Shown here piece after piece: positions 1-43,499 of a stretch of DNA of 57,814 bases. The notes under the pieces are model-generated. The model made no database searches. It worked only from the letters and a program-made list of their open reading frames with translations, and had not been told where the DNA came from. The translations under genes and the position numbers were made by a program. The stretch is from Perkinsus olseni (lineage: Eukaryota). The DNA is taken from NCBI GenBank assembly GCA_013115125.1, contig JABANN010000171.1:1-57814 (forward strand), read 5' to 3'. Position 1 is the first letter of the stretch. Every line of letters begins with the position of its first letter.

Positions 1-20
1 TGTCACTTGTGATAAGTCTG

Positions 21-656
21 TTACGGTTTACTTATCGCTAAGCAAGTCACGCGTCTAAGTTCATTCACGCGCACCGTTCCGGGCTCCAATACCGCCACAA
101 GCACGTCAGAAAACATCGTATGGCGTCCACTTACGCCGAAGAAAACATGGTTTCCAACAGCTGCCATTGCGTTTAACATGCCGCTGGTCGTTGAAGTGCT
201 GTCAAGACCCGTCGTGTACCATTCGCCCAGCAAACTCCTTCCTTGGAGGTCGTATACCAAAATCTTGCTGTCCCACCCTGTGTCATGGTAGGCACCATGA
301 AAGATGACGAGCCGATCTCCAGGGTCGTCGTGGTAGGCCCTTTGGATATGCCGGCCTTGTGGTGCTATCACATGAGGGTCAGAGAGTGAAGGCAGGGTGT
401 TGAGCACAAGATTTTCCTTCTCCTCGAAGACACCTTTGAGCACGCCCTCGTGGAAAAAGATGAACGAAGGTGCTTTAGGCAGCTCAACTTCCTCTGAGCA
501 GAAGGCCAGCGAGTTGGAGACATCATCTAGGAAGGCTGTGATCTCCATCAGGACGTCGGCAACCAAGTCGCAGGACGCATGCTCCTTCCACATGCCGGAT
601 ACATACTGGCACCGCATGGCCACTATACTGCGCAGAGGAGGTACGCTGATATGCAT
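21..656 (-). CDS. Hypothetical protein, single ORF, possible degenerate F-box-like N-terminus
   Basis: 211-aa ORF; DLVADVLMEITAFL loosely resembles an F-box helix and is followed by beta-rich sequence; no confident family. Confidence 0.45.
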   Translation of the reverse strand: MHISVPPLRSIVAMRCQYVSGMWKEHASCDLVADVLMEITAFLDDVSNSLAFCSEEVELPKAPSFIFFHEGVLKGVFEEKENLVLNTLPSLSDPHVIAPQGRHIQRAYHDDPGDRLVIFHGAYHDTGWDSKILVYDLQGRSLLGEWYTTGLDSTSTTSGMLNAMAAVGNHVFFGVSGRHTMFSDVLVAVLEPGTVRVNELRRVTCLAISKP

Positions 657-1503
657 GGGGGATCAATGCAACCTAATAGTGGCGGTGAGTCGAGTCGAAT
701 GATCTCAGACTGTGATTCACAATCCAGAAGCGTTGCGGCTATAGTGCTGCACGTGATGCCTGCTAAGCAGTGCCTGGCACTGAGGACCAGACCCTCTTCG
801 ATGTCCTCGCCGCTGAGGACACACACCCTTCGTGTGTGTATTGATATCCTCCACTGTTAGACGGGATACGGCTCATTCTCCCTGGAGCAGATTCTGTTAG
901 GCGGACACATAGCTGACCACGTATAGAATGGTTGACGGAATGATGAACCTTGAAATGTGATGCCCACGTGTGCCTGCGTACACATTCGCACGCAAGCACA
1001 AGGTATCGACAACACAGGCAGGACCTCTTTATCATGATGGGTCGACGAGCGCGATAAATGCTGAGTCACGGGCGCGCGCGTTTAGGGGCCCCGGAACTTC
1101 TCGGCGTCGCCGTCATCATCATCGCCTTTACAGATTACCAATGGTCATTAACCATCTCTAGCTTCATGCTCACGACTGCATACGTTCTATCACCAGTGTC
1201 TGAAACTCGGCTAACGGAATATCAGTTGGCGCATTTTAACGCCGGACCATGGTCGTGTTACGCGTGGTGTCCTTCGGAATTAGCATTGGCACGGCTCAAG
1301 TCGTCACAGAACTTCCCGGCGAATTCAGTTATTTATTTCAGTCAAGTCATTCCTGCTTCTCTAGTTGAGCCAAAGGCGAGGAAGGGGGGCAGGCATACTA
1401 CAGGTAAGCTAGAAACACGACCGGTACGTCCAGCGCTCCGCCTCGTTAGATCGGGCAGATCCCGAGGTCAGCGCTAGCCTAGTAAGCGCCCTTGGCCTGC
1501 ACC

Positions 1504-3858
1504 ATGACATCCATCACAGATCATCGGATCGCCATGGAGGAGAGGTAGTAATGGAGGGTCCCAGGGTGGAATTACGGATGGACATGCCAGGGAGCCTCTC
1601 TGTCGGACAAGATGAGCCTATGGCTCGGCAGCAAGTGCGAGACCTACTCCATTAGCGTATGCATGCTATGCCTCGGGCTCATGTACGCACTACCTTACGC
1701 CGTGTCTCGAGGTACGGAAGCTGTTCAGGTACTCGGTTCATAACTTGGTCGCTCCGAACATGACATCCATGGCCAAGATGTTCCATTTCAATGCCGTTGA
1801 ACGCGACGAGTAGGCTGCTAGGATACGCTGTACTGTCGTTAGCTGTCATGTAGGTACCTCGGTGGCGAGCTCACTTTGGTGTTCTACGCCCCTGGTATGT
1901 TCGTAGCCCTCCTAGTGGGCCTACTGTCTGCTGTTGTCCCGCGGAAAACACTGCTCACCGCAGTGGTCGCCCTCACAGCCCTGGCAACCATGACCACTTT
2001 TTTCGCCGGTAGATCGTCTTTAGCGTCCGCATGGCGAAGAGTACAATGTGTAGGTACATTTCGTTCCCTCCTGTGGGCTCGAGCCATAGCTGGACTGGGT
2101 ATTGGTGGTGCTTTGCCTGTCGCGTATTCCATGGTTGGCGACTGGTAATGATGCCCCATTTCTCTTCCTCCTCGTTGCTGCAGCATCCGCCCTCCAGGTT
2201 CCCTCCTGACCAGCGAGCGGTCGCGTCTGCAATGATCACCGCAGCCTGTGGGGGGGGCGTGTTCTTGGGGCAAGTAGCTGCAGCATACATAGGGAAGGTA
2301 GTCGTGGTGATGGTTGCCGGGTCCTTCCATATGTTTCTCAGACCATCGACTGGCGCTGGGCTTTCCTCTTGATTCCAATACCAGCCCTCGCAGGAGCGGT
2401 ACTCTGCCAGGTGGGGATCACTGGGTTTACGTGTGAGGTCACCAGGGCACCCCTTAGTGCACACTGATCGAGCCTGAAAGGGGAGCCATGGATGGAGCAG
2501 ACCCTGTTACTGCGGACGATGAGACTGTGGTCGGTGATTGGTACAGTCATTTACATGCTGATTACCTCGTGCAGACACTCATCAGCCGGGGGCCTGAGCC
2601 TTCAGAGTCTGCCGCTCTATCGACAGTCGACACGGAAGGCCCGGCTTTATCTTATAGAGGGGAGGGGCAGTCCAGCCGATCTGCATGGTTTGCTGATAAC
2701 GTGGAGCAACTCAAGCAGGCTTCCTATTCCCGTAACACGATGCCCGTCTTGTTGCCTCTCTCGAGCCCGCTCGATACCAGGTACGAATCTCCTGGTACTG
2801 CTGCAAGCCTTCCCCGGCGGCATACCATGGGGAATCATCATCGTTTACCTTCATGACTTCCTAGTACAAGTGAGTCGATGTTTCAAGCACTGCTACAGCG
2901 GAAGATGCCTTCCAGGACATGGGCTTCTCGATTGAGCTGGCACTTTTCGCCTCGGCCACGATGGGGCTCGCCGGATTCTGTGGGGTCCTCATCGGTGGAT
3001 TTATAGGCGAAAAGCTCTACCGAGCGGACCCGCGGTAGTACCGGGTTCGGGTAACCGCTGCACACGATCGTGGCAGATACTGTGCTTTGTTCTGCTCGGT
3101 CATGTCGTTGCTGAGGGTTATTCCTTTCTTCGCTGTCTTCGGGTGGACCTCCCTCTACAAGGAAGGGCCCAACGAGGTCGACCAGCTGGCAGCTGCAGCT
3201 GTGGGGAAGGCCATGGATGCGGTAGTTGGTCCTTTGCGAGCTCGTTCGCCGAGAGCTGTCTATTCAGGTTGGTGAAACACAAGCCCACATAGTATCCACA
3301 GAGATGTTGCATCTGTCCTTCTTCGGGACACTCTTCATCGGTGGAGTCATTGCTACCACCCCAGCAGCCAACCTAGGTGCCATTCTGTTGAATGTCAATC
3401 CGCCACAGCATCGAGGTGGTGCAGGGGTATGGTGCCAGATCCGTCTCACCTACGAGTGTCAGGTACGGTATTTGCAGTGTATAGCGTGCTTGATGACCTC
3501 TCCAAAGGCGTGGGAACGCTGTTCGTTTCGTTACTGGTAAGAGTAGCGGACCTGACGTTACCTCATGCTGGGACTCTTGTCTCCGCCAGATACCCTATAC
3601 AGGAGGTCGGGCAGTAGCGTACCAGTTCACTCTCGTTGTGTGGTTGGTGTGCGGCCTTCTCCTGATACCAGTGGTCAACAGCCTGCAAGAAGACGAGCTA
3701 TACATGCAACGGACTTTGCGGGAGCAGCAGCATAGGAAAAGGGTAGTCCGTTCAGCAACCTCTCCCATGACAGCCCATCTACTCCGTACAAGGTCAACGA
3801 CATGAGATCAGAAGCTAGCCACCGCATACTCTCCACAACAGCCAAGGCAGCATCGCTA
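1504..3858 (+). CDS. Major facilitator superfamily transporter (Spinster-like), multi-exon; ends approximate
   Basis: Spliced reading gives LCLGLMYSVHNLVAPNMTSMAKMFHFNAVERDEYLGGELTLVFYAPG, ARAIAGLGIGGALPVAYSMVGDW/FPPDQRAVASA, QAFPGGIPWGII, AILLNVNPPQHRG; short GT-AG introns between segments. Confidence 0.85.
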
Positions 3859-4178
3859 GTTTTGCATCGGAGACCGGCCAGTAGCCCTTCGTGACTCTAC
3901 GATTCCCAGGAGTGACATGTTATCAGAGAATGATGTCCGGTCTTTACATCACTGTCGTGTTTACCCGTCGTCCTCGTCAACTCTTGCTGGGGAATATATC
4001 GTCTTCGATTCGTGTCGTGAGTGAGGGCTGATCTTCGTCCGCTCCAGAGCTGACGCCGTCGCTGTTGTGCACAGCAATGCTTTTCGGGTTGGCCCGTGAG
4101 CATCATTGGTTGTGTGGCAGCTGTCTCCCTCGTGATACCAATGATCCGAACGCACCTGACCTTCAGTTTTTTTGGCAA

Positions 4179-6134
4179 ATGGGAGCGTGCACATCGTGCT
4201 TTGAAACACCTACAACTGCCGTGCCTCCGCCAGCAGCGCCACCAGTACAAGTCGTATACAATGTCCAGAAGGAGAATGAAGAGAGCCCGGATGTCACGGT
4301 CTATCACGACACTCTACAGCTGCCGGTCAGCCCGACTACGGTGATGGCTAGCCAGCCGTGTACGGTGACTACCGTGACAACTGAGACTGTGGAGTATCCA
4401 GGCCAGGTTGACGAGATTGTTGTGGAGGATTCTGATGGTGAAGACGTCCCCGATATTGAGGAGGTCTCTGTAGAATCCATCACCTCTGAGGGCGACCATG
4501 AGTCTAGCGGTGACGTTGAAATCACTAGTACGGCCTTCGAGCCCTCGGTTCTACCTGACGAGGTTGATGCTACTGTCGGTGATGATCATGACGGGCGTCC
4601 TGGTCATGATGATGAGGTTGCACCACTCAACAACCCCGTACCTGTCGAGCTCCTCCGCACTGCTGCGGCTTTGAAGGCTGATCAGAATGAGCCGGAACAG
4701 CCGCCACCGCCAACCGCTCATGCTCTGACCGCTGAAGGAGCCTCCTTCGCTCTAGCCGCTTGCTCTGGTATCTCGGCATCCTCTATTGGGAGCCCTGACG
4801 GGTCGGGGGAAGGGTCGCCGGCGGTACCCGCAGTCGCACAGACTATGATGAGTACGACGTCGGGCCTTCAACCCGGGGAGAGCGGTCCTGTGTATCAACC
4901 AGCGGCTTCAGAAGAGGCACCTGTGGCTCAGGGCACACTGGAGCCAGTAGATGCTGGTGTCCTTGGGCAACGCCCACTAGGTCTAGCGGAGGTGTCGGCG
5001 GAATTTGACATTGGTTTGGTACAGCAGCTTCCCCCTCAAACTGATATCGAGGAGGCCGAGGAGGTCACCACTGGTGAGGTTGCTGTTCAAGACGATGTAA
5101 CCGAAGAAACCACGGTTGTTGTTGACGAGGTCGTAGAGACTTCTTCTTCTGCTGCTCTCACTGAGAGGCATTTGCCTTACCTGTACGATACGCAGCCGAG
5201 CCCACCTACTGATAGGAAGTTTCCTTACCTCTACGATCATCCTCAGCTGGGTGCTGATCGAACCGACGGGGAAGCTGCCGTCTCCACTGCTTCGAGGCAG
5301 TTCCCTTACTTGTATGATCATCCCGTCGTTGAGGACAACACCACTGGCGCAGAGGCTTCCTCCGCTGTCACTACGAGGCAGTTCCCTTACTTGTATGATC
5401 ATCCCGTCGTTGAGGACAACACTTCTGACGCTGAGGCTTCGTCCGCTGTCACCTCGAGGAAGTTCCCGTATCTTTATGATCGCCCTCAGTTGCGGGGCGC
5501 TGTAGCTGGATCATCTGAGGGCTCCGCTTCGGCCGGTACTCGGAAATTCCCCTATCTATACGACTCCCCTCTTGGGGTCGCTCCCTTTGTGCAAGCACCT
5601 GTGACTAGCACTTCGACGGGCAGCGCGAATTGTGGTGAAGCAACAGGGAACGGCGATGAGAAGAAGGTGCAACGAGAGTCTATGCCGGCTGTCACAGCAT
5701 CAAAGTTCCCTTACATGTACGACAAGCACTCAATGGCGGATGCCGGGGTCATCAGCGGTTCGTCGTCATCCACAGCGGCTCTTCCAAGCAGCGGTACTGG
5801 TGGCGATAGTCGTGAGGCGGTCAGCGCTGGCCACGGTGAATCGACTGCTGCTACTACTGGCAATGGTCCGGTTGAGGGCAGGGCTTTTCCTTACTTGTAT
5901 GACAAGCATTCCGAGGCTTCCCGAGAAGGGTTTGGACAGCAGCCAACTGAGGGAAGCGCAACAGCAGGGTCCATCGAAGAGCATTCTACTGATAGGAGGT
6001 TCCCTTACCTATATACTGCAGCCAGTTCCGATGCGGGCTCCGGTAGTGTTGCCACCACTGCGACGACGGCAACTACCACGAAAACACAGGCCCCGAGGGT
6101 TACTGGGGTCACCAGTCCTGAGGTGCGAGAGTAG
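4179..6134 (+). CDS. Acidic low-complexity protein with MGAC-type dual acylation motif and 9 [FL]PY[LM]Y repeats
   Basis: Long uninterrupted ORF (4065-6134); ATG at 4179 gives MGACTSC; motif counted 9 times in the translation. Confidence 0.75.
   Translation: MGACTSCFETPTTAVPPPAAPPVQVVYNVQKENEESPDVTVYHDTLQLPVSPTTVMASQPCTVTTVTTETVEYPGQVDEIVVEDSDGEDVPDIEEVSVESITSEGDHESSGDVEITSTAFEPSVLPDEVDATVGDDHDGRPGHDDEVAPLNNPVPVELLRTAAALKADQNEPEQPPPPTAHALTAEGASFALAACSGISASSIGSPDGSGEGSPAVPAVAQTMMSTTSGLQPGESGPVYQPAASEEAPVAQGTLEPVDAGVLGQRPLGLAEVSAEFDIGLVQQLPPQTDIEEAEEVTTGEVAVQDDVTEETTVVVDEVVETSSSAALTERHLPYLYDTQPSPPTDRKFPYLYDHPQLGADRTDGEAAVSTASRQFPYLYDHPVVEDNTTGAEASSAVTTRQFPYLYDHPVVEDNTSDAEASSAVTSRKFPYLYDRPQLRGAVAGSSEGSASAGTRKFPYLYDSPLGVAPFVQAPVTSTSTGSANCGEATGNGDEKKVQRESMPAVTASKFPYMYDKHSMADAGVISGSSSSTAALPSSGTGGDSREAVSAGHGESTAATTGNGPVEGRAFPYLYDKHSEASREGFGQQPTEGSATAGSIEEHSTDRRFPYLYTAASSDAGSGSVATTATTATTTKTQAPRVTGVTSPEVRE
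5281..5470 (+). repeat. 81-bp coding tandem repeat (27-aa unit RQFPYLYDHPVVEDNTxxAEASSAVTx), about 2.3 copies
   Basis: CGAGGCAGTTCCCTTACTTGTATGATCATCCCGTCGTTGAGGACAACAC occurs at 5293 and 5374. Confidence 0.9.
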
Positions 6135-6456
6135 CTCAGGCTACGACCATATTTTAAGGCTGGACGCTAGCTACATTTCCATCAAACCAGATTTTTTCCT
6201 CAACACCCTATGTCTATTTTGGTGGAGCGCGGAAGCTCCATCATTGTATAATCATTAGTATATCTCGTCCACGAGTGAGTAGTACTTCTACTAGCAGTTT
6301 TTCGTTACAGATACTCTGAGTTTCATGAGACAAGTTGTTGCGTTTTCATTCCTGAGCCTTCTAGCGGACGGGATGTGTCTGAGGTATCTTCATCATAGTC
6401 ATGGCCTCCGCTACACTGATTCTCTTGTCAGACGTTGTTGACTTTTCCACGTCCCA

Positions 6457-6738
6457 ATGGGTTGCAACTCTTCTACTGTATCCGAGCCAGTGGCCGCTCC
6501 GGAGGCTTCTGAGCAGGTTGTTGCCACTGGATCGGAGGGTGGTCCAAAGGTTGAGAATGATGTCGCTATGGCGAGCAACGTCACTACCGGCAAACCGTCT
6601 GTTAGTAATGATGAGTTCCCCTACCTGTACGGCTCCATGCAGGATAAGATCTCCGGAGAGTCTAGTCAAGAAGCGACTTCTAAATCTTTCCCCTACATTT
6701 ACCCAGAGGCCTCTGGTAGCACGGAGCCTCAGAATTGA
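6457..6738 (+). CDS. Small protein with MGCNSS dual acylation motif and two FPY[LI]Y motifs
   Basis: 93-aa ORF; EFPYLYG and SFPYIYP share the motif of the upstream gene. Confidence 0.6.
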   Translation: MGCNSSTVSEPVAAPEASEQVVATGSEGGPKVENDVAMASNVTTGKPSVSNDEFPYLYGSMQDKISGESSQEATSKSFPYIYPEASGSTEPQN

Positions 6739-7184
6739 GGATTGTTTATCGAGGGCGTTTATGATGGGATAGGTAGACATTTTTGGTAGACACTTTTTCC
6801 CCGGTATATTAGAGTGGTTGTGGATGCCGCCCCTGCTGCCTGGGCGGTCACATAAGTCCCAGCAAGACGAGAAGTATAAGGCGTCTTTCCGGCGCACTGG
6901 GTACATTATTGTTGAACAGCAGAGACTCTCTGCCAGAGAGGATACTATATTTACGAAGCTGAGTGTTATGTTTCTAGTGAACAAAACCAGTCGTGTGGGA
7001 GCCATGTATCCTGCAAGCTAGTATGATCAGTGCAGTTCAAAGCCGTGCGATTATCGCACTGCGATATCGGCCTTGCTCTTCGACACTGGCGGTTAATTCC
7101 CTGAGAGCAGCGTCAAATGCTCTCGCGTAAAACGGCGACGGTGGGTAACGTTTGTTCGGAGATTTGTGGTTATTTCGATGATAC

Positions 7185-7450
7185 CAGCACTACAGGAGCG
7201 TGAGCTAATTTTCTGCTTGTCGAATGGCGAGGATCGCGTTCGACAGTCGAACTTCGACTATGTACTAGAAGACGCTCCTTGGCTCGCCGTGAAGGGAAGG
7301 TGCCAGTTTTACCGAGGACTGTTAGCGAGATGCACTTCCGTACTCTCTTAGGTGCCAACGGCCGCCGGTGACCGGCGGTAGGCGTGTCCTGTTTCGTAGC
7401 AGCTATCACGGCGAAAAGTGGAGTAGTGGAAGAAAATACCCTGATCTACT
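7185..7450 (+). pseudogene. Truncated, frameshifted copy of the 5' end of the gene starting at 10223
   Basis: Aligns to ~10184-10422 (MARIAFDYVLEDAPWLAVK vs MERIVYDDVLEDIPVLVVK; VSCFVAAITA shared); two 14-nt insertions; GCAAGG donor changed to GGAAGG. Confidence 0.8.
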
Positions 7451-8249
7451 TGCGATAAGGCTGTGATCAGCCGTATCATGCTTGGTACCATCAACGAACT
7501 TGCCTAGGACCCCTCAATAATAGTATTTTTATGATACTCCTCTCAACGGAATGGTTCCTATACAGGGTCAATCAGTCGGCATCTGTTGGGTCATCTGTGA
7601 TAGGTTGCCAGTACGGTCGCAGGAACTTAGCCTAACATTTGTAAGCGGGAAATAAGACCTGATACTCCACCCAGGACTTGACACTCAGGAAATTAGCGGG
7701 AAGTTAGGACCGGGACTGACACTCCACCCAAATCTGGATACTAGACAGTGGCAATGCCGCATTGCCTTAAAGGGATGTCCAGCCGTCGGCGCCTGAGGGA
7801 GCACTCCTGAGTCTGTAAGGGCAACCAATGGGACCTTAGTCATTGACGAGGTATCGTCAATGACATGGGGGAGTTGATCTTCGCAACTCAGGGTGGCCTA
7901 GCTGATGGGGAGCCAGCCTCAGGAAGTGGCTAGGAGCCACCGGACGATCGGACGCCTGATGGCTGATCGGACGCCATCACCCATGTCTCAGGACGCACAT
8001 CTATCTAAACTAGTAGTGAATCCTTCCATTGACCCGGCCTTTAAGGGTGTCCAGATCATCACCCCTGTCTCACTCCATCAAGTAATCAGATAGATCATCA
8101 GGAGCATATTTCTTTACCTCATGTGGGAGTCCCACATCGGTGATCAGCGGAGAACGGTGATATTGTCACACAGTGGGACAATATCACCGTTCTCCGCTAG
8201 GGTGACCCTAGCGAAGAACGGTGATATTGACCCTAGTAGGGTCATAACT

Positions 8250-8535
8250 CTAGGGGTCATGAACTCTAGGATCATACTTCACGAACCAGCCTTGATCCTT
8301 CCATGTCTGGATCTCAGCCTCGTAACCTTTGCGCTCTTCCACAGTCGACAACTTCGTATACTCTCCAACATCGGGAACAATCCTATCTGATGGTGACACA
8401 CCTCCTCTCCATTTCCATTGGAAGAACCAGGAACCACGAGACGGGTCGAAGCTCGACCGTCGAACTCAACGACGAAACCAGAGGGCGAACAGAACCAAAC
8501 CACCGTGACTACCTGTCCCTTCTTCCACGTTAACA
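8250..8535 (-). mobile_element. LTR-retrotransposon pol fragment (region leading into reverse transcriptase), decayed
   Basis: Removing the 14-nt scar gives FVVEFDPSRGSWFFQWKWRGGVSPSDRIVPDVGEYTKLSTVEERKGYEAEIQTWKDQGWFVKYDPRVH, resembling from memory the WxWxW...ExxxWxxxGW segment upstream of RT in a Ty3/gypsy-like group. Confidence 0.6.
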
Positions 8536-9129
8536 TGTCGTGCCAGTTGAGTCGATAAGAAGGGACTCTCAGAGCGCCCTTGTTGTCTCTGAGGGTTTTA
8601 GTCAAGTGGAAGAGGCAACGAGCGGAGTTATAATTTAACACTCAGATAGCATTCAAGTTTGGGTTTACGCTATCATCCCTCGACGAGGGATGAGCTCGGG
8701 CTCGGGTTTTGGGGTGGTGGTTTAATCCATTCACGGATTGCTCGGATCTCAGATCCGACAAGCTCGTTACAAGCAGATCCGGGATCTGCTTGTAACACAA
8801 ATATCTTTAGTTTTCTGCCTTTCTTACCTTGTGACTGTTGAGGTGCATCCAATGGAACGGCTGTGGTTCCTGAATGTTGAAGACTACCAGCCAACGAGCC
8901 GCCTCTCCAATCCTATTCAGTCAGGCTCTTTGGTTGGGGAACATTAAGCGGTTGGCTAGCCACACTCCGAACGGGTTGTGATTATCCAGCTTGGATAGTC
9001 CAGGAACTGAGATCAACAGGTGTATACACTTGATGCGGCTTGTTGGCATCCCTTAAGGATCTGAGTCCGGCCGCTGCAGTCGCTCCCGCCGTCGGAATGC
9101 TCAGTATCTGGGAGTCTGACAATCGAAGC

Positions 9130-9345
9130 TTGTTCTTGGTCGGTGGTCGTTGTTGGTAGTGTGTGGCTGGCCTCAAGGTCCTCTGCACATCAGCCTGATT
9201 AGCGGGTTTGGGAGTTCGGATGTACCAACAGAACACGCCGAACAACCCGAACACGACGTATTTGGGAGGACCTCGCGCCATGCTTCGAGAGCACCTTGAT
9301 GGGCGTCGTGAGCACAGAGGTTCACGATACTCTGAATTGTAGTCT
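9130..9345 (-). mobile_element. Possible decayed integrase H2C2 zinc-binding fragment
   Basis: IVNLCAHDAHQGAL, then after a frameshift SMAR...W...ADVQRTLRPATHYQQ, loosely matching H-x-AHQG...W...DV...CxxCQ. Confidence 0.3.
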
Positions 9346-10222
9346 CACGCATCATTGAGGCTGCCACCAACGTGTGACACGTTACGTGTCTGGGTCAACT
9401 AAGAGATGATGGTGCACGTCAAACCACTTTCCGTTGATGATGGCTCTTATCATGGGCTATCAGCGAAAAAGGAAGGGACGAGGGTATGCCTATATTGGCG
9501 ACTATATATTGAATGTACTCGCGGCACTCTCTCGACTAGGGTGCGTCTCCGACGCGCTCTGCGAGCCGTTGGGATAGGCTGATAACCCGTCCACGCTTTC
9601 CTCTAAGGTGCAATATATGAGATTCGAGCTGATCACTTTACTCGAACGCGACTACCTCAACGAACTCAATCACGCCCGTCAGCAAGCGCCTACTGATGGA
9701 AACCCCACTCTAGTTTGCTCCAGATCCTTCATTATCACGCCTGTTTCATTCTCGGAACGTTTCCGCTGAGCGGTATCCACTCTTTCTGAAACACGTAAGA
9801 CAGCATCTGTAACAGGGAATGTTTGCCACGTGCAGCGGTTTCAGCTGCCTTATCGAATCTCACCCCCCATCGAGAACAGCGACTTGCTTCTCGAAATCAG
9901 TCTAGTGAGAACCCGGTTGTCGCAATGTTGTTCTCAACATCGACAGAGTTATGGCCACTGTCTCTATGGCGGCCAGTGAGTCGTCTTTCCACTCCTCAAG
10001 GTCAGCGATTGGTTTCTCCAGTTGGCGTAGTGAAACGCAGGACCTGATATGCGGTCTCTGCACGGGTACGCTCACCTTCTGAGTTGACCTGGTCCATGAG
10101 TGTCTATATGGTGGTCAATGAGTCGACTCTCCCAAGTTGGGAGTCCCAACCTTGAGGTTTGTTGATTTGCTTTTTTATGACAGCAGCTCTGCAGAAGCGT
10201 GAGCTAATTTTCTGCTTATCGA

Positions 10223-12429
10223 ATGGAGAGGATCGTGTACGACGATGTATTAGAAGACATTCCTGTGCTCGTTGTAAAGGCAAGGTGCCAGCTTTGGAGA
10301 ACACTGCCAGTGGAAATGCACGGCCATACTTCCTCAGGTTCCACCAGGGCTAGGCGTGTCCTGTTTTGTAGCAGCTATCACTGCGGAAGGCGGGATAGTT
10401 GAAAATTTCACCCCTGCTGTACAGAATGTGCTCCGTGAAGTGGTATTAACATATATGCGCGGGGCTGACTGATGTGTTGTAGTCAGCTCGATAGCTGCTG
10501 CGATCACTATGGCCGGGTCGCCATCGATTTAGTGTTCAAAGTCATGAGCGCAGCTCGCAGGAAAGTTCGACAGAAGGTGAGAGCACTCTGGCCTTCTTCA
10601 TAGCAAAAACTTTGCGACTATCAACTACTGCTCATCCCACCGACTACTGGTGGCATGTACAACATCGGCCTCGCCGTTTGTGTTCAGGATCTTCAGTTAT
10701 GGGAAGACCTCTTCGGCGGCTCAACAGCGTGTATAGTGCAGACTACCTTCGAGCAGGGGTTGAGCCATTGGATGAGCGAGTTGGGCATCGACTTCATCGC
10801 TGCAAACGACATGATACGAGTACTTGCGTTATCTCCATATACCCGCTAGTCTCAAAGCTTCAGGCCCTGCTAGGAGTCATTGACCCCTATAGCACTGGCA
10901 TTATTCAGAGAGATGCTTTCGTTGAGTCCATGGGACTTTGCGGAGGTTCTGATCTTCTTTGTGCGGAGAATCTTCCTATCATTCTCTCCTGGGCCGCCGA
11001 GAGAGGGAAGAAAGCCGCAAATCTGCCGTCGTGTCCGGAGCGAAGTCGAGCTCGTTCTCTGTACGTTTCGCTTACACTTCCTTCGCGTCTGTTACACCCT
11101 CAGCTCCAGCATACCTCGCCCGATCCACGCACTCAAGTCGGAGTACCCGGTGGCTGTTGTTCAATCTGAGGTCAGCGAAGTCCCACCTTCCTCACCGGAT
11201 GAGGTTCTCGCGATAAGCTCTTCACGTTATTGCGATGCGACGGAGGAACTAGATTGTTCGCGGAGTTCGAGGTGGGCGTGCGTCCTCCAGGGGTCGTAGC
11301 GGCGATTCTCAACACCGCAGATGCAGGTCGGATCAGTCGCCCGCCGTTCATGCATCTCTCATCGCCCGAGCACTTCGGAGGCCGACGCAACGACGTCTAT
11401 GGTCATCGCTAGTGCGGCTCAGTAGTGGTCCTCGTCTGGATCGTGAGGATGCCGTGCGGGTTCGAGCGATTGTAGGGACTTCTTCCGCAGAGTGCAGCTT
11501 GCACGACGCACTCTTAGGCTAGCTTGCTACGTCTTAGTACCATAAGACGGATTGCATGGGGATTCTCACGTATGCAGACACAAGTGATGGGTCTCAATCT
11601 CGAGCCCCAGTGATAGAAATGAACGGCCAATCAGGTACACGGGGTTAACAGCTCGATCTTGTGCCCTCTGGGTGATCCACCTAGACGATCTTTCTCTTAC
11701 ACGCGATCGCATTTGGAAGTGGTGAGTCACCTTGCGGGGCTTGGTGTCCGTGAGACTAATGACCTTGCGTCAGGCAAGACAGGCGCGCGCACTCACTGCT
11801 GCGATGTTCGCCGCGGCAGCTGCAGTCCGTAGGTCGATCTCTGTCAGATATCAAGCGTTGGCAGACGCAGAGCGGATCTCACGAGCGAAACCGTCTCAAC
11901 GGAGTGTTTCCACGGAGGAGCCTGGTCCGATGTGGGCCTCAAAGCCATTGTGGTTGAATTTGTCTATTTCACTCCTAGGTACGACGTGCGCCCTGAGACG
12001 TCAGAGCACGTTATTGCCCTGCCTTACTCGCCGTTATCCGACCCACCTCGGCCAGGGAGCATTCGTCACGGCTCGATATTGGCCGCTTCGCGTAACCAAC
12101 GAGTTGCGGCGGAAGGACAGACCGACTTGCTAGATCCTCGCACGCCCAAGAAGCCCCATCTGAGGGTGGCCGAGGGAGTGAACACCCCGCGATCCAAGCG
12201 CCGTGATTCCTCCTGGATCGACTCTGCGCCATCTCCCTGCGCGGGGGATGCTGATAGTCCCCACCTTATGGTTTCGTCTGCTCGTGAGGATCACTCTTGT
12301 CTGCGGAGAGCAGGAGTGCTAGGTCCGTTTCCTTCAGGGAACTTCGAGCAGATCTTGGAGCCGCAGCAACAAACTTCAGTTAACAAATGGCGAAAGAAGC
12401 GTCCCAGCACGTTCCATATCTTTGCATGA
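10223..12429 (+). CDS. Hypothetical multi-exon protein, possible EF-hand-like loop
   Basis: Exon-like segments (e.g. LLGVIDPYSTGIIQRDAFVESM) linked by short introns; probable GC-AG first intron; 3' exons uncertain. Confidence 0.55.
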
Positions 12430-12845: not shown

Positions 12846-15640
12846 ATGGATTCACGCCATCGATTAAGTGGAATGGGAGGTAGGACAGACGTGAGGTCCA
12901 TCGCGTGTCCCGGGCAACTCGGAAGTCATCCGTGAGCTTGTCTCAGAAAGGGCAGGGTTCTTAGGGCACGACATTCTATGATATTGATGTTATCCTTTTT
13001 CAGGTCGAGACCGGGTAGCCTGGATTACTGCTGCATCGCCTTCTTCTGGTCGTGCGCTCTCACCCAGCTGATCTGTGGCATAGTCATAGCGAGCTCGACG
13101 AACTATACTCACCCTGTCGTTACAGATCCGGTAGGCGCTCTGTATGGGTCGTGAGTCACGTGTCGTTGTTCACTCATTGTCAACAAGCTCCTCAGTATGC
13201 ACTAGGCTACACGTTGGGCTAGCAATGGATCGTCGGCCGCGATGGTGCTCTCCTCAACCTCAACTTCGCCGAGCCGTGTATAGAGTTGAGGGATTCTATT
13301 CAGAGGACTGATAGCGATGTTCTGAAGTTTCGGTTCAGAACATCTTGTGGATCTTCTTCGACTGAGAGCGCCAGCGTGGGCTAGTTCTCGGGCAACGCCG
13401 TGGCAGTAGAGTTCATCTAATTTTATATCTCCATCATTCGTTGTCACGCTAGTTTGTCCATGAGGAATATTATACCGGTTGAACTTCGCTCGCTGAGGAG
13501 ATTCCTGCAGAGCGTCAGGTGGCAGTGAGACGAAAATAACGAAGGCTTGTGAAATATAGGCCTTTCTCTGGATTTTTCGAAGCTGAACACCTTCCGTGTT
13601 GTCGGGGTTGACCATGTTTCAGCATCTGTAATGTGCCCATTTTTCTTCTCAGAGCCAGCTTTGTCCGAGCAATTACAATTTCGCCCTTGCCGACTGTGTC
13701 AGCGAGGGCGCAACCTCACTGCATCCGAGGTAGGGCACCTCCGCAGGGATGCTCCACTCTGTCGAAGGCTGCTGTCGTTCTTTCTTGTGTGGAACTATCT
13801 GAGCGTACTGCTTGAGATCTGATTATCGGTCATACTTGTCTTGGTGCGCTCCATCTCTCTTGCTCAGTCTGCTCGCTTGTGTTGACGCTGGGCTGTGCGA
13901 CTCCATACGTGCCTGCTATCAAGGGGCTGCAACACCATCCACTATGAATGGGTCGAGGATACTGCAAGCCCCGGATGCCGGGGTGAGTTTCCTTCGTTCT
14001 CACTGGCTACTGCCTGAGAGATCCTTCCTTCTACGCAGGTAGCTGCAGACCTGTGGGAGGCTCTCGCGGACTACTGGTACATCCCCACTACTATTTTCCC
14101 CAGTATGGTGCTTGTTGCTGTACTTTGGCTGTTGGCCTCGGAGTACATCCCTAGGGTTCTGATTTGGTCTACACTAGCAACTTCCATAGTATTCCTCATC
14201 GCCCTATGGGCTTTCTGGTGAGCTCCGTGTCACAACCTTCTCGCTCTGAGGTCATTTGTTCGTAGGAACTTCGAGTATGGTTTCAACAACTGGATGCTGC
14301 TCGTCATCGCCGGCCTGGCCACGGTCTCTAGTGCAATTCTTTATAAGTCGATAAATTGTGCGGCGGAAGTCCTGTCGGTCGCAGCCTGTGGGTTACGATG
14401 CACCCCATCGGTCGTGCTGGCAAGTCTGCTTTTGAAGGGAATCTTCGTTGCCTACGTATTACTCTGGACTTTCTTCATGGTGCGATCGGCGCAAACTAAG
14501 GAGCTTGACGAGAGTAATTGCTCTCTGCGCTCGTCCCCAGGGATCGGCTTCGCACGGTTCCTATTCGGTCTTCTCTTTTGGGTATTCACCTACGTATTCC
14601 TTAACATGAAAACGGTGGTCTGTGCTGCGGGTATTGGTGCTTGGTATTTCCCTGGTGGTGATGGAGAGCCGACCATACCAGCACTGAGGGGCCTTCAATG
14701 GGCTTTTACGACCAGCTCTGGGGCTGTCATGTTCGCTGCCACTATCGTGGGTGTCACTAGATTCATTCTGAACCGTATCGGTAACGCATGCCACTGCCTT
14801 CCTTGGTTCTTGACACCGCTTGGCTGTCTATGGAAGTGTCTCACTTGCTGCTGTATGAGCATTCTCGAGGCATTCTCGAAATTTATGATTATCGGCCAAG
14901 TATTCGCCGGCGGAAGCTTCTGTGGCGCTGGACGGAAATCCTTCCGTCTCATAAAGAACCGCCTCGGAAACGCGTTCATCACCGACGGTGTTGGCCATAC
15001 CGTCGTGACTACGGCGACCTATCTTTTCTCCTTCTCTCTGGGCGTGGCATCCTGGCTGTGGCTCGATGCAGCTCAGGAATATCAGACGCTAGCTGAGCTC
15101 AACACCTTCTTATTGATACCCGTACTTCTACTCTTCGCAGCCTTCATTTCTACACCCATTTTCACCATCGTAGTGGTCACCTGGTTGTCGCCTCTGCTGC
15201 ATGGTTTAACATGTGGGGAGGATGGCTGTGACTCTAGCTCCCAGGCCAACGCTCAGAGAGCAATCAACTCTGTTACGGGTGCTCTATTCGTTGGTTCGGT
15301 ATGCTTCGCTTTCTTCCACTTTCTCGCCGATGTAGTCCTATGTTCGATCGACACTGTGTTTTTCTGTTTTGCCATCGAGGCCGATGCTCGGTCGTATCAG
15401 CATAGGCTGGAGGGTCCAGTGTACTCAAAGTTCACGGAGAGCTTAGATCTGAGCGCGTCCTTTAATGACGGCCCAGCTGCGTCACATTGTCAGTCAACTC
15501 CATGCACTTCCTGTGAAGACTCGCACGTTGTCTCGCCGGGATCCACTCCCGTGCAGAGTGGCAGCGACATACCTTCTCCAGCCGACCAAGCCTTGTTCGG
15601 CTACACTGCAGCGGTGCCCGCTCACACTGGCGGTCAATAA
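12846..15640 (+). CDS. Choline transporter-like (SLC44/CTL family) protein, paralog 1
   Basis: Multi-TM ORF 14294-15640 with AGIGAWYF, AFTTSSGAVMFAA, GGSFCGAGRKSF, IDTVFFCFAIE; upstream exons match paralog 2; intron 2 about 13131-13867. Confidence 0.85.
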
Positions 15641-18132: not shown

Positions 18133-20681
18133 ATGGCTTCGCACCGGGGGTTAAATGGCGGAACAGGTAGTGCTTCGGTGCCGAGGGAGGCTTTTGCATA
18201 CGTTAATAGAGGCCTCAACCGCGAGAGTCCTGGTCTCTCCTTCGCACAGCATCGTGATAATGGTGTTACACCAGCGCTCTGGGCTCTTTCAGGTCAGCAC
18301 TCGGTCCGCTCGACTGGATATGTATTGCTCTGTTCTGGGTGTGCATCCTAGCGCAGTTGATAGCGGGATTCGTCATCATTGCATCCCGCAACTATGCCTT
18401 CCCTTATGTGGAAAGCCAAGGGGTGAGTACGCCTAGTTACCTCTATATGTGCACCGGCGAGCTTCGCGGCCATATTCCTCTTTTCGGCCCATCCCACGGT
18501 ACTGTTGGCTAGCTTACGCGTCAACCTGGGCGGCAGCATTGCTTGGGGACTGAAGGCTGAGGTTGGAGTTCGTGTTGTCAGTCCAACGCAGTCTGTCCAT
18601 CCGGATTCGTACTTGCGGCGGAGAAGTGCAAGCTTCAGGGTTCCCGCGTGAACCCATTCGATCCCAAGTAGCGACCCCGCCAGGAAAGTGGTGTTGAACC
18701 TTATCTTTCAGTGCGCTGGGCTGTGTGGATTCTAAGCTATGTGATGACTTGCTGCGGTGTCACGCAAGTTTGAGAGATTCTTCTCTACCTTTTGCCTTCT
18801 TGCAGGCCGAGACAGGCGGCGAGAAGGTGAGCCAATGTGTCGACGTAGGAGTCGTTTTGATATACCTAGTGTCGCCTCAGGCCGCGAACAACCTCTGGGA
18901 AGCTTTCGGAGACTACTGGTACATCCCGACCGTGATATTTCCATCAATGGTGGTACTTGGGGTCCTCTGGCTGCTTGCTATGCAGTACCTGGTGAAGCCA
19001 TTGGTATGGACAACCATTACGGCAGGCGTAGCCTTCCTGATCGGCATGTGGGCATACTGGTAGTAATTGGGAACTCTATTAGGAAAGGTTTTTTCCACTT
19101 TCCGCCTATCCTTGATGCATGGGCTCGCCCGGTAGTGCGTGGTCACTACACTCGTGAGGGGTTTCCTCGGAAGAGCCTTACTCATCAGGTACTTCGTGCA
19201 TGAAGTCAACAATTGGATGCTTTTGGTGGGAGCAGGGATAATCGTCCTAGCCTGCATATTCCTCTTCGGGTCCATCAACCGTGCCTGTAAGGTGATATCG
19301 GTAGCGGCCTACGGGCTCAGGAAGACGCCATGGGTCATCATCACTAGCTTGATGGTGAAGGTCATTTATGTGCTTTATGTGGTTCTTTGGACCATCTTTA
19401 TGATACGTAGTGCGCAAGCGAAGTCTGTGAAAATGTCAAACTGCACGCTAGAGGACGAGAAGTGGATACAAGTTGCCCGTATTATCTACGGTCTTCTCTT
19501 CTGGATATTCACCTACGTATTCCTTAACGTGAAAACGGTTGTCTGTGCTGCGGGTATCGGTGCTTGGTATTTCCCTGGTGGTGATGGAGAGCCGACCATA
19601 CCAGCACTGAGGGGCCTTCAATGGGCCTTTACGACCAGCTCTGGGGCTGTCATGTTCGCTGCCACTATCGTTGGCATCACTAGATTCATAATCAATCGAA
19701 TCAACAGCGCATGTGGCTGCCTGCCGTGGTACCTGTCCCCCATATCGTGTATTTTCCAGTGCTTCGCCAGCTGTTGCCTCGGCGTTCTCGAGATGTTCTC
19801 CAAGTTCATGTTGATAGGCCAGGTAAGGTGATCTGCATGCCCCCTCCATGTCGATAGCTTCACTGCACAGGTTTTCTCTGGAAAAGGTTTGTGCGGAGCT
19901 GGGCGGAAATCATTCGATCTCGTCAAGGACCGCCTGGGTACGGCCTTCATCACTGACGGCGTTGGACATTCTATGGTGAATACCATCATCGGCTAACGTC
20001 ATGATAGGGCACCTTGTTGTTCAGTTGTCGATCTGTACCTATGTCTTCTCCCTTGGTATAGGGATAGCTGCATGGGTATGGCTGGATGAGGCACAGAACT
20101 ACCAGACCCTCACCGAGCTTGGCTGGTATCTCCTAATACCAGTACTGCTGCTCTTCGCAGCCTTCATATCGTGGCCAGTCCTCACCATTGTCCTCATATC
20201 CTGGCTGGCCCCGACCTTTCATGTTTGGGCGTGTGGTAGAGACGGCTGCAATACGGTTAATGAAGTTCATGCCCAGCTGGCCATCAACTCAGTCACAGGC
20301 GCGCTCTTCATCGGCTCCGTCTGCTACTCCTTCTTCCACTTCTTGGCTGATGTCATGCTGTCATGTATCGATACTGTTTTCTTCTGCTTCGCGATCGAAG
20401 CCGACGCTGATGTCTATCAAGGCCGCTTTGAACACTCAGTTTATATGGTCCTCAAAGAGGATATGACCGACGGTCGTGAGGCGCCCATTTATAAGGGAAA
20501 CGCTCGACCTTTAGAAGAATACGAAATGGCGCCTGTAGGAGGCGCGACTCAGCAATCTGCAACAGTCCCGGCTTACTCGCCGGAGTTCACTCACGGTGGA
20601 AGGGCGGATCCGACTGCGCAAGCCACTATTGGTTACCAAGGACCTGTGCGTCCTGGCGGGGACAGGATATCCTACGTGTAG
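18133..20681 (+). CDS. Choline transporter-like (SLC44/CTL family) protein, paralog 2
   Basis: Same motifs as paralog 1; extra introns at about 19823-19870 and 19976-20024. Confidence 0.85.
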
Positions 20682-42491: not shown

Positions 42492-43499
42492 ATGTCACCG
42501 CCTGGCTCTCCGATGTCGGTTGTGATGGGCTCACCTTTATTAGAAGCCACATACTCACGCTTCCGGGATGGAGACGAAATCATGGAGCGTTCCATCAGCG
42601 GAGGCAAAAGGCTGCGTGGCTTCTTCGAGGCTGAGGCGAGACCAGCGAAAATGGTAAGAAGACTTGGACTCGAGGAGGAGAGAGCGGCGAGGAAAAGAAA
42701 GCGGACTGATGGGGATAGTAGGGGCCCGGTATTGTCTCCGATGGTCAGGAGGCGCCTGGGTTCGCCCATGGGGAAGAGGAGCGCCGCTGGTGGTGATGAT
42801 AACGAGTCATCGAGGAAACACAGGCGCGTGGACCTCGGCCTGATGGAGAATGATGGTCCGAGTCGCAGTGGTGATCATGGGAAGCGGCAAGGAGTGAAGT
42901 CGCCGTTGATGGTGGAGTTGGAGAGGATAGAGAGGTTGCCTAGGTCGGCTACTCCAATGCAAGTACTCGGCCTACCGAGACTACCGAGTAATGTTGGGGA
43001 GGTGAAGAAGAAGCTCCGAGCACTTAGTAAAGTAGTGCACCCCGATAAGACCGCCAATGAGAAGCATCTGAGGGGTAGGGCTGGGGCTGCCTTCCAACGG
43101 ATAAACTCCGCAGCACAGGAGGCTATAAAACTCCTTGAAGAGGCCACCACAGCCCCACCGGGAAGAGTTCAAGAGTTGACTTATCGAATGGAAGGGGAGG
43201 TATTGGTGGTCCAATGGCGGCCACCGGCTGATGTCAATAAGAGGACGGTGAGCTCTTATCGAGTGGTTGCCTCTGCCCCCGGTACCGCTCCAATCGAGCA
43301 AGGTGTTGTTAATGCCCAAGGATCTACTACTGATGATGGCTGGGTGGAATGTGCTATATCCTCCCAAGGGCGGAGGGGTAATGATACCCTATTCTTAAGA
43401 CAACAGTTTCAAGTAACGGTTAATGCAACCAATCCCAGTGGTCATGGACCCGCTGCCCTACTGCATGTATCCCTCAATCCAAGGCCGCCCCGTATGTGA
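42492..43499 (+). CDS. J-domain protein with FN3-like C-terminus, intronless, paralog 1
   Basis: QVLGL...VKKKLRALSKVVHPDK...AFQRINSA; APPGRV...VVQWRPP...SYRV...FQVTVNATNPSGHG. Confidence 0.85.
   Translation: MSPPGSPMSVVMGSPLLEATYSRFRDGDEIMERSISGGKRLRGFFEAEARPAKMVRRLGLEEERAARKRKRTDGDSRGPVLSPMVRRRLGSPMGKRSAAGGDDNESSRKHRRVDLGLMENDGPSRSGDHGKRQGVKSPLMVELERIERLPRSATPMQVLGLPRLPSNVGEVKKKLRALSKVVHPDKTANEKHLRGRAGAAFQRINSAAQEAIKLLEEATTAPPGRVQELTYRMEGEVLVVQWRPPADVNKRTVSSYRVVASAPGTAPIEQGVVNAQGSTTDDGWVECAISSQGRRGNDTLFLRQQFQVTVNATNPSGHGPAALLHVSLNPRPPRM

What the first reader, a model, noticed from the sequence alone, without database searches (positions are those of the whole stretch)
7045..10150. Dense field of stereotyped 22-nt scars, T[1-7]+revcomp(T)+T[2-8]: a probable hAT excision hotspot
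Seen, perfect: GTGCGAT-TATCGCAC-TGCGATA (7045-7066), GTTCGAC-AGTCGAAC-TTCGACT (7238-7259), AACGTGT-GACACGTT-ACGTGTC (9369-9390), CTCCCAA-GTTGGGAG-TCCCAAC (10129-10150). One mismatch: 7356-7377 (T=CACCGGCG), 8444-8465 (T=GGTCGAAC). Two mismatches: 8983-9004 (T=TATCCAGG). T differs each time but the geometry is fixed. With 14 constrained bases, chance is about 4^-14 per position, or about 2e-4 perfect hits per 58 kb. Established: hAT transposases (Ac, Tam3, Hermes) make 8-bp target duplications, nick 1 nt into the flank and leave hairpins on the flanks. Inference: opening both hairpins and annealing their complementary inverted 8-mers gives exactly this +14 nt product. This implies a mobile 8-bp-TSD element repeatedly entering and leaving this island, plus a homology-driven repair route that yields a fixed scar.
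Basis: partly seen in the sequence, partly recalled or inferred. Interest (0 to 1): 0.92.

Follow-up and report, generated by a model that had tools for sequence, protein, structure and literature searches.

The report
Transposon excision scars in Perkinsus
A 3-kb non-coding stretch of the shellfish parasite Perkinsus olseni holds a dozen small palindromic insertions that look like the repair scars left when a cut-and-paste transposon of the hAT type jumps out, and some are present in one strain and absent in another.

Summary
The form T[1-7]+rc(T)+T[2-8] occurs 5 times perfectly in the 57.8-kb window (a fifth at 6919), only for an 8-base T and a 1-base offset, and 0 times in 10 shuffles. Allowing filler between the two halves gives 10 sites, all within 6919-10150. 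Hairpins with a single-base centre number 24 against about 3-4 expected, 18 of them in the island. Even palindromes are at chance.

The scars are derived and polymorphic. A paralogous copy lacks exactly 14 nt at two scars. Contigs of another sample lack exactly 14 nt at 7239 and 8445, and lack 38-nt and 50-nt extended scars, leaving one T each. That sample also carries two scars the window lacks.

An 8-bp duplication with palindromes centred on the complement of the base next to the break is the published signature of hAT (Ac/Ds) excision through flank hairpins. Here the hairpins were opened at least 8 nt from the tip and mostly annealed.

Not shown: no transposase, terminal-repeat element or filled allele was found, and no genome was available. 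The window is a Perkinsus olseni contig. This is a new variant of a known kind.

The parts
6919..6940 (.).
   Evidence: An X7 contig spanning 6706-7304 has only one 14-nt gap (at 7239), so this scar is present in that sample too (table 8 record 19).
7045..7066 (.). Compact +14 scar, perfect, T=GTGCGATA
   Evidence: Present in X7 record 19.
7238..7259 (.). Compact +14 scar, perfect, T=GTTCGACT; polymorphic
   Evidence: The paralog at 10177-10403 lacks exactly these 14 nt. An X7 contig has 14 nt left out at 7239, leaving a single T.
7356..7377 (.). Compact +14 scar, 1 mismatch, T=CACCGGCG
   Evidence: The paralog lacks exactly 14 nt here.
7744..7766 (.). Decayed or one-sided scar: odd palindrome with 8-nt arms (7750-7766), T about GGCATTGC
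   Evidence: (2 mismatches). No allele evidence.
8122..8179 (.). Extended scar (+50), T=TGTGGGAC. The left odd palindrome is 8121-8137. The right odd palindrome has about 25-nt arms centred at 8172. Filler lies between them. Polymorphic.
   Evidence: I2. An X7 contig joins 8122 to 8173, and removing 8123-8172 leaves one T.
8197..8243 (.). Extended scar, T=CTAGGGTC. The left P tract of about 26 nt is an inverted copy of the left flank (centre 8204). The right palindrome is 8228-8244.
   Evidence: I1. No allele evidence.
8444..8465 (.). Compact +14 scar, 1 mismatch to T=GGTCGAAC; polymorphic. It interrupts a minus-strand ORF.
   Evidence: An X7 contig has 14 nt left out at 8445, leaving one T.
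8673..8693 (.). Odd palindrome with 10-nt arms and no partner: candidate one-sided footprint
8743..8788 (.). Extended scar (+38), T=CGGATCTG. The left odd palindrome is 8742-8758. The right odd palindrome is 8766-8796 with 15-nt arms. Polymorphic.
   Evidence: I4. An X7 contig skips 38 nt (8743 to 8782, 6 nt fitting either side), which leaves one T.
8983..9004 (.).
   Evidence: 3 mismatches to the middle-defined T, a stringency at which shuffles also give hits. X1 and X3 contigs have a joint starting at 8988.
9081..9088 (.). Site unscarred in the window where sample X7 carries a compact scar
   Evidence: The X7 loose end before 9083 printed holds an odd palindrome with 7-nt arms. Read on into the window, it fits the compact form with 1 mismatch (my reading, table 7).
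9100..9110 (.). Site unscarred in the window where X7 has 32 extra letters holding a perfect compact scar (T=CTTAGCAT) nested in further alternating copies
   Evidence: table 5c, decoded by eye.
9369..9390 (.). Compact +14 scar, perfect, T=AACGTGTC
   Evidence: An X3 contig that diverges after 9348 shows this T once, unscarred. An X7 joint starts at 9375, the last base of T[1-7]. Both points are suggestive only.
10129..10150 (.). Compact +14 scar, perfect, T=CTCCCAAC
   Evidence: Present in X7 record 22 (10075-10547, no gaps).
7178..7431 (+). About 250-bp repeat, copy A. Copy B is 10177-10403. Used as an internal outgroup for two scars.
10177..10403 (+). Copy B of the repeat; lacks both 14-nt insertions
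702..1155 (.). Three 2-mismatch matches to the compact form (702, 768, 1134): possible old scars, not secure
   Evidence: Shuffles give 0-2 such hits per window.

Best explanation
These are excision footprints of a cut-and-paste DNA transposon that makes 8-bp target-site duplications and leaves the donor flanks as hairpins offset by one nucleotide. That is the chemistry described for hAT elements.

Proposed steps:
1. Insertion duplicates an 8-bp target T.
2. At excision the transposase nicks one base into each flank. The flank 3'-OH attacks the opposite strand, so each flank ends in a hairpin whose tip is the complement of the base that bordered the element.
3. Host nucleases in Perkinsus olseni open the hairpins far from the tip (8 to about 29 nt), giving long palindromic P tracts.
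4. Both tracts contain rc(T) or T, so they usually anneal over these 8 bases, giving T[1-7]+rc(T)+T[2-8], a net +14. When they are joined without that annealing, both palindromes survive with filler between them (+38, +50).

Events recurred in this 3.2-kb non-coding island over time and in different lineages.

Shown: the geometry, its exclusivity to n=8 and offset 1, the derived and polymorphic state, and the variable P-tract lengths.

Inferred: the transposon itself, the superfamily, the nucleases and the annealing step.
For: - Only n=8, k=1 is enriched: 5 perfect compact scars, and 7 perfect or 8 with <=1 mismatch once extended forms are allowed. Ten shuffles gave 0.
- Perfect hairpins with arms >=7 and a 1-nt centre: 24 observed against 3-4 in shuffles, 18 of the 24 in 6900-10200. 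With a 0-nt loop there are 3 against 1-3, and with a 2-nt loop 1 against 3-5.
- A paralog lacks exactly 14 nt at 7238 and 7356.
- X7 contigs lack exactly 14 nt at 7239 and 8445, 38 nt at 8744-8781 and 50 nt at 8123-8172. Each removal leaves a single T.
- X7 carries scars the window lacks, at 9081-9088 and at 9103-9107, the latter nested.
- The extended scars have independent left and right palindromes whose centres are the complements of t8 and t1, with arms up to 15, 26 and 29 nt.
[quoted passage not shown] - Scars hold no sequence other than copies of T and its flanks, apart from short filler.
- The same scars appear in contigs of runs from two studies and, for 6919, 7045 and 10129, in a different sample.
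Against: - No element with an 8-bp TSD and terminal inverted repeats stands out. One hit at 54988-57206 lies inside a coiled-coil gene and is at chance level. The relaxed scan gave 1 hit against 0-2 in shuffles.
- No transposase domain appears in any of 113 ORFs >=120 aa or 206 ORFs of 75-119 aa.
- No filled allele was seen among the rows that one search printed. Its tables were cut: 28 loose ends and 9 indels were not shown.
- My literature searches found Dada and Merlin-related elements reported in Perkinsus marinus, but no report of hAT in Perkinsus.
- The hAT target consensus nTnnnnAn (recalled) is only weakly visible: T at position 2 in 8 of 20 symmetrised sites.
- Short-P footprints typical of plants are at chance level here.
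- The allele evidence rests on assembled contigs of public runs, not raw reads.
- Enrichment and the 'hotspot' are measured in one 57.8-kb contig only.
Confidence: 0.75

Rival explanations
1. Same process, different agent. The footprints come from another superfamily with an 8-bp TSD that also leaves flank hairpins: a MULE with 8-bp TSDs, or a family whose chemistry is unknown, such as the Merlin-related elements reported in Perkinsus marinus.
For: MULEs make 8-10-bp TSDs and form hairpins on flanking DNA (PMC5499845, passages). Merlin-related ORFs were reported in P. marinus (PMC8101967, passages). No hAT was identified here.
Against: All 10 sites have exactly 8 bp and none has 9 or 10. Muta1 excision in yeast was over 90% precise (PMC5499845). 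The centre base being the complement of the base next to the element is documented for Ac/Ds (PMC5873905). I saw no statement of the MULE or Merlin nick offset.
Confidence: 0.13
2. No transposon is involved. The insertions arise from replication template switching, or from snap-back synthesis during end joining at ordinary breaks.
For: Inverted local copies are the hallmark of template-switch mutations and of polymerase-theta-type templated insertions (recalled). No element was found.
Against: A fixed 8-base unit with a 1-base offset, at arbitrary sequences and with nothing at n=6, 7, 9-12, needs a molecular ruler. T is present on both sides of the junction, which requires a prior duplication of T. 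The centre bases are complements of the original bases, not the originals, as a fold-back copy would keep. The extended scars carry two independent palindromes.
Confidence: 0.07
3. A domesticated hAT-type nuclease acts repeatedly on this island as a programmed or regulated rearrangement, rather than a free transposon.
For: Events are extremely concentrated in 3.2 kb and recur in separate lineages. Domesticated hAT transposases that cut a chromosomal locus are known in yeast mating-type switching (recalled, not checked).
Against: Break sites differ each time and each needs a fresh 8-bp duplication, which implies insertion before excision. No conserved recognition sequence flanks the scars. No transposase-like gene lies in the contig.
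Confidence: 0.04
4. An assembly or amplification artefact, such as chimeric inverted reads.
For: Small inverted duplications can arise in amplified libraries (recalled).
Against: Runs from two studies give identical sequence, though some may be the source of the window. A different sample shares three scars and lacks others exactly. The paralog comparison within the contig agrees.
Confidence: 0.01

Closest known systems
Ac/Ds (hAT) excision footprints in Saccharomyces cerevisiae, Arabidopsis and Candida albicans
   Same: An 8-bp TSD is retained on both sides. Palindromic P tracts are centred on the complement of the base that bordered the element. Hairpins are opened away from the tip, with arms up to 20 nt in yeast, and joining uses microhomology (PMC5873905 and PMC1978519, passages read).
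   Different: Those are laboratory excisions of a known element. Here the element is unknown, the host is a perkinsozoan, and the record is natural polymorphism. Short-P footprints are absent. The dominant product is the full annealing of the two TSD-length palindromes (+14), and arms reach about 29 nt. I did not see this exact +14 product described in the passages I read. Yu et al. 2004 was not held and supplements are closed.
P nucleotides at V(D)J coding joints; Transib/RAG
   Same: Flank (coding-end) hairpins are opened off-centre, giving palindromic additions.
   Different: For RAG and Transib the nick is at the border, giving even palindromes, and the TSD is 5 bp (recalled). Here even palindromes and n=5 are at chance.
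MULE (Muta1) excision
   Same: Flank hairpins, and TSDs of 8-10 bp (PMC5499845).
   Different: Excision there is mostly precise and the TSD length varies. Here the length is strictly 8 bp and the footprints are large.
Short template-switch mutations / quasi-palindrome mutations
   Same: A local inverted copy is inserted next to its source.
   Different: Those have no fixed length, no duplicated target and no complement-centre rule (recalled). Here all three hold.

Membership tests
hAT excision footprint | 8-bp target-site duplication kept at the donor site | tested here: met
   T is 8 bases in 10 of 10 sites. There are no hits at n=6, 7 or 9-12.
hAT excision footprint | Palindromic additions centred on the complement of the base that adjoined the element (flank hairpin, 1-nt offset) | tested here: met
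   Only offset k=1 is enriched. Odd palindromes number 24 against 3-4, while even ones are at chance. Empty alleles confirm that t8 and t1 are the complements of the centre bases.
hAT excision footprint | An unscarred allele with a single copy of T exists | tested here: met
   X7 contigs show this at 7239, 8445, 8123-8172 and 8744-8781. The paralog shows it at 7238 and 7356.
hAT excision footprint | A filled allele or resident element with terminal inverted repeats and an 8-bp TSD | tested here: inconclusive
   No credible element in the window. None among the rows that were printed. The rest of the genome is not available.
hAT excision footprint | A hAT transposase (DDE core with hAT C-terminal dimerisation domain) encoded in the genome | not testable with these tools
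   None in 319 window ORFs >=75 aa. No genome is held and I had no permitted hAT query sequence.
hAT excision footprint | Target preference nTnnnnAn (recalled) | tested here: inconclusive
   Symmetrised over 10 sites, T is at position 2 in 8 of 20. A central 4-bp palindrome occurs in 4 of 10 against a 5% background (post hoc).
MULE footprint | TSD of 8-10 bp, usually 9, and mostly precise excision (PMC5499845) | tested here: inconclusive
   Only 8 bp is seen. Footprints are large rather than precise. The nick offset of MULEs was not found in the passages read.
Transib/RAG-type footprint | 5-bp TSD and a hairpin without offset, giving even palindromes (recalled) | tested here: not met
   n=5 gives 1 hit against 0.6 expected. 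k=0 gives none. Zero-loop hairpins number 3 against 1-3.
P-element footprint | 8-bp TSD with remnants of the element termini left at the donor site (recalled) | tested here: not met
   Scars share no sequence other than copies of their own T and flanks.
Replication template-switch mutation | Inverted local copy of variable length, with no target duplication | tested here: not met
   The unit is fixed at 8 bases and T is duplicated on both sides.

The most novel reading that the evidence does not exclude
Perkinsus olseni harbours a still-active hAT-like element, or a hAT-derived nuclease, that keeps returning to this 3-kb island. Each scar triples a partly palindromic preferred target, which would make the hotspot self-reinforcing; the nested scar in sample X7 fits this. 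The parasite may also lack tip-proximal hairpin opening, so that nearly every excision is resolved at least 8 nt from the tip by annealing of the TSD-derived palindromes. If so, +14 would be a lineage-specific mutational signature that can be counted genome-wide, and a readout of an unusual double-strand-break repair system.
Probability: 0.2. Interest if true: 0.75.

Novelty: new variant of a known kind. Interest (0 to 1): 0.55.

Why it matters
- It is sequence-level evidence for recent, recurrent cut-and-paste transposition in Perkinsus. In the papers I searched, only Dada and Merlin-related DNA transposons were reported for this lineage.
- The strict 22-nt form has a chance expectation of about 2e-4 per 58 kb. 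It can therefore be used as a computational probe to map past excisions genome-wide and between strains, which is rarely possible with ordinary short footprints.
- The spectrum (no short P tracts, arms of 8 to about 29 nt, frequent 8-nt annealing) says something testable about hairpin opening and end joining in this parasite. That bears on how induced breaks would be repaired in genetic work.
- The events create strain-specific indels and palindromes that could serve as markers.

Tried and rejected
- Own genome: not held, so no genome-wide n-scan and no search for transposases or repair genes.
I replaced it with ORF-wise scans. Ten island ORFs gave 0 families at E<=1. All 113 ORFs >=120 aa and 206 ORFs of 75-119 aa gave no transposase.
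- TSD plus terminal-repeat scans. The first script timed out. The strict scan gave one 8-bp hit, 54988-57206, inside a coiled-coil gene, with about 0.3 expected by my estimate. The relaxed scan was at chance.
- Homologues of ORF 8282-8641(-): none.
- A conserved 21-mer of the 250-bp repeat in metagenome contigs: 0 hits.
- Rfam and tRNA scans of the window: 0, so there is no small-RNA gene that might attract a target-specific element.
- Short-P footprints T[1-7]+a+b+T[2-8] for all a,b: at chance except where a+b=8.
- Run X9 (organism B) has no cover over the island and says nothing either way.
- Yu et al. 2004 was not held. One search had a term-syntax error.
- A search for repair genes of Perkinsus in papers listed nothing about Perkinsus.
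TE tables of Perkinsus genome papers may bear on whether hAT is present.
Full report
**Origin.** The window is a complete 57,814-bp contig. Its choline-transporter-like ORF is 100% identical to a protein that the sources name as from Perkinsus olseni, on a contig of that same length. Other ORFs are ordinary eukaryotic genes: DnaJ, WD40, RRM, citrate synthase and PX. No whole genome is held for it.

**Observation.** I scanned the window for T[1..n-1]+rc(T)+T[2..n] with n=4-13.
- Perfect matches occur at n=8 (5 sites: 6919, 7045, 7238, 9369, 10129) and otherwise only at n=4 (20 matches) and n=5 (1 match); there are none at n=6, 7 or 9-13. In the gapped scan, counts at n=4 and n=5 were close to the shuffles. 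The 6919 site is new.
- With <=2 mismatches there are 11 hits against 0, 0, 0, 0, 2 in five Markov-1 shuffles.
- I varied the offset, testing T[1..n-k]+rc(T)+T[k+1..n] for n=6-11 and k=0-3. Only n=8, k=1 stands out.
- I then allowed 0-80 nt between the left half T[1-7]+rc(T) and the right half rc(T)+T[2-8]. This gives 7 perfect sites, 8 with <=1 mismatch and 10 with <=2 at n=8. There are none at n=6, 7 or 9-12, and none in ten shuffles at n>=7.
- All 10 sites lie in 6919-10150.
It has 3 mismatches when T is taken from the middle 8-mer, a level at which shuffles also score.

**A broader signature.** I counted perfect hairpins with arms >=7 by loop length and compared them with four shuffles.
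- Loop 0: 3 observed against 1-3.
- Loop 1: 24 observed against 3-4.
- Loop 2: 1 observed against 3-5.
- Loops 4-7: at chance.

Of the 24 one-base-centre hairpins, 18 lie in 6900-10200. The 6 outside match the chance expectation. So the island is enriched specifically in odd palindromes, including several that are not part of compact scars (7750, 8121, 8195, 8228, 8673, 8742, 8766).

**Derived state.** A ~250-bp segment occurs twice (7178-7431 and 10177-10403). In the alignment, copy A has two gaps of exactly 14 columns relative to copy B, at scars 7238 and 7356.

I laid contigs of four public runs on window 1-12000. X1 and X3 may be the source of the window. X7 is another sample of the same organism, holding about half of the sampled words. 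X9 barely covers the stretch.
- X7 contigs have 14 nt left out at 7239 and at 8445.
- X7 contigs join 8743 to 8782 (38 nt skipped) and 8122 to 8173 (50 nt skipped).
- Removing these stretches from the window leaves exactly one copy of the respective T.
- X7 contigs spanning 6706-7304 and 10075-10547 have no other gaps, so scars 6919, 7045 and 10129 are shared.
- X7 also has scars that the window lacks. Its loose end before 9083 fits the compact form at window site 9081-9088 with one mismatch. The 32 letters it carries at 9103-9107 contain a perfect compact scar (T=CTTAGCAT) inside further alternating copies, that is, a nested event.

These last two readings are mine, made from the printed letters. 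The tables were truncated (9 indels and 28 loose ends not shown), and contigs drop rare variants.

**Extended scars.** Three sites keep both halves apart.
- 8743-8788 (T=CGGATCTG): a left odd palindrome with 8-nt arms, a right one with 15-nt arms, and filler between them.
- 8122-8179 (T=TGTGGGAC): left arms of 8 nt, right arms of about 25 nt with one mismatch.
- 8197-8243 (T=CTAGGGTC): a left tract of about 26 nt that is an inverted copy of the left flank, and right arms of 8 nt.

In each, the centre base of the left palindrome is the complement of t8 and the centre of the right one is the complement of t1. For the two polymorphic sites this is checked against the empty allele.

**Mechanism.** Three features must be explained together. 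T is present on both sides. Each palindrome is centred on the complement of the base that would have bordered an inserted element. The tract lengths vary.
- Together these require a prior 8-bp duplication, followed by covalent joining of the top strand at t7 to the bottom strand at c(t8), and symmetrically on the right. That means flank hairpins with a 1-nt offset.
- This is the model given for Ac/Ds and other hAT elements. [quoted passage not shown] - If both hairpins are nicked at least 8 nt from the tip, the two 3' tails end in rc(T) and T. These are complementary. Annealing, flap removal and fill-in then give exactly T[1-7]+rc(T)+T[2-8]. This step is inference.
- Footprints with shorter P tracts, common in plants, are at chance here. 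So opening far from the tip seems to be the rule in this organism.

**What is missing.**
- No terminal-repeat element with a 7-10-bp TSD stands out. The single 8-bp hit, 54988-57206, lies within a multi-exon coiled-coil gene and is expected by chance.
- None of 319 ORFs >=75 aa matches a transposase family.
- No filled allele was visible.
- My paper searches (passages) found Dada (6-7-bp TSD) and Merlin-related sequences reported for Perkinsus marinus, but no report of hAT in Perkinsus. Supplements are closed.
- The assignment to hAT rather than a MULE with 8-bp TSDs or another family therefore rests on the TSD length, the offset and the imprecise footprints. Muta1 excision is over 90% precise in yeast (PMC5499845).
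- The target sites fit the recalled hAT consensus only weakly. 4 of 10 have a palindromic central tetranucleotide (post hoc).

**Hotspot.** Within this contig the concentration is extreme: all 10 sites lie in 5.6% of the sequence, with no excess of odd palindromes elsewhere.
- Three scars are shared between samples, at least four are specific to the window allele and two to X7. Events therefore happened at different times and in different lineages.
- The island has no Pfam-recognisable gene, no tRNA and no Rfam family, and it contains dispersed-repeat fragments.
- I cannot tell whether the clustering reflects local hopping, a target preference, or simply tolerance of +14 insertions in non-coding DNA.

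**Rivals.**
- Template switching or snap-back synthesis cannot explain a fixed 8-base unit, the duplicated T or the complement centres.
- An artefact is excluded by agreement across studies and by exact allele differences.
- A domesticated nuclease is unlikely because the break sites differ and each needs a new duplication.

**Verdict.** This is a real, well-defined cluster of transposon excision footprints of the hAT type in Perkinsus olseni. Its repair spectrum is unusually uniform. It is a new variant of a known kind. The agent remains to be found.

Noticed in passing
window 7178-7431 and 10177-10403: Two direct copies of a ~250-bp segment lie 3 kb apart and bracket most of the scar island. 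BLAST puts them at about 71% identity including the two 14-nt gaps, and 82-85% in the ungapped blocks. They could be long terminal repeats of a decayed retroelement or duplicated promoter segments.
   Followed up: partly
window 8843-9348: Other contigs of runs X1, X3 and X7 match parts of this stretch at about 90% identity and then run on into unrelated sequence (loose ends at 8843, 8952/8956, 9164, 9262, 9348). Depth also rises here. So part of the island belongs to a dispersed repeat family.
   Followed up: no
window 8250-8641 (minus strand): The scar at 8444-8465 splits a minus-strand ORF into pieces of 120 and 71 aa. Without the 14 nt the frames fuse into one ORF of 125 aa. No Pfam family or homologue was found, so coding status is open.
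   Followed up: partly
the ten T sites, window 6919-10150: 4 of the 10 targets have a palindromic central tetranucleotide (TCGA twice, CCGG, GATC) against a 5% background. Positions 1 and 8 are G or C in 16 of 20 symmetrised sites. This is a post hoc hint of a symmetric target preference.
   Followed up: partly
window 9375-9469, 9461-9564, 7841-8019, 8988-9103: Further joints in X7 (and in X1/X3 for 8988-9103) skip 93, 102, 177 and 114 nt. Several start or end at scar sites; for example 9375 is the last base of T[1-7]. The letters between the sides are not known, so deletion, alternative repair product and filled allele cannot be told apart.
   Followed up: no
window 5290-5451: A tandem 81-bp repeat (2 copies, 93% identical) lies inside a 700-aa ORF (4032-6134) that has no Pfam family.
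   Followed up: no
window 14049-15640 and 18891-19831; 42895-43194 and 46664-46963: Tandem paralogous genes: two choline-transporter-like genes (70-84% identical blocks) and two DnaJ-domain genes (a 96% identical block).
   Followed up: no
window 46108-46128: A single match to a shorter-P form of the footprint (a=4, b=3, T=GGCAGCCA) inside the DnaJ-domain ORF. It is one hit among many forms tested and may be chance.
   Followed up: no
window, not localised: Weak to moderate matches to the PIF1 helicase and the Pif1 2B domain appear in three of the scanned ORFs. I did not check whether this is a host PIF1 gene or part of a Helitron-like element.
   Followed up: no
window 5203-6939: Run X9, labelled as a different organism, holds low-depth contigs identical to the window here and nowhere else in 1-12000.
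   Followed up: no
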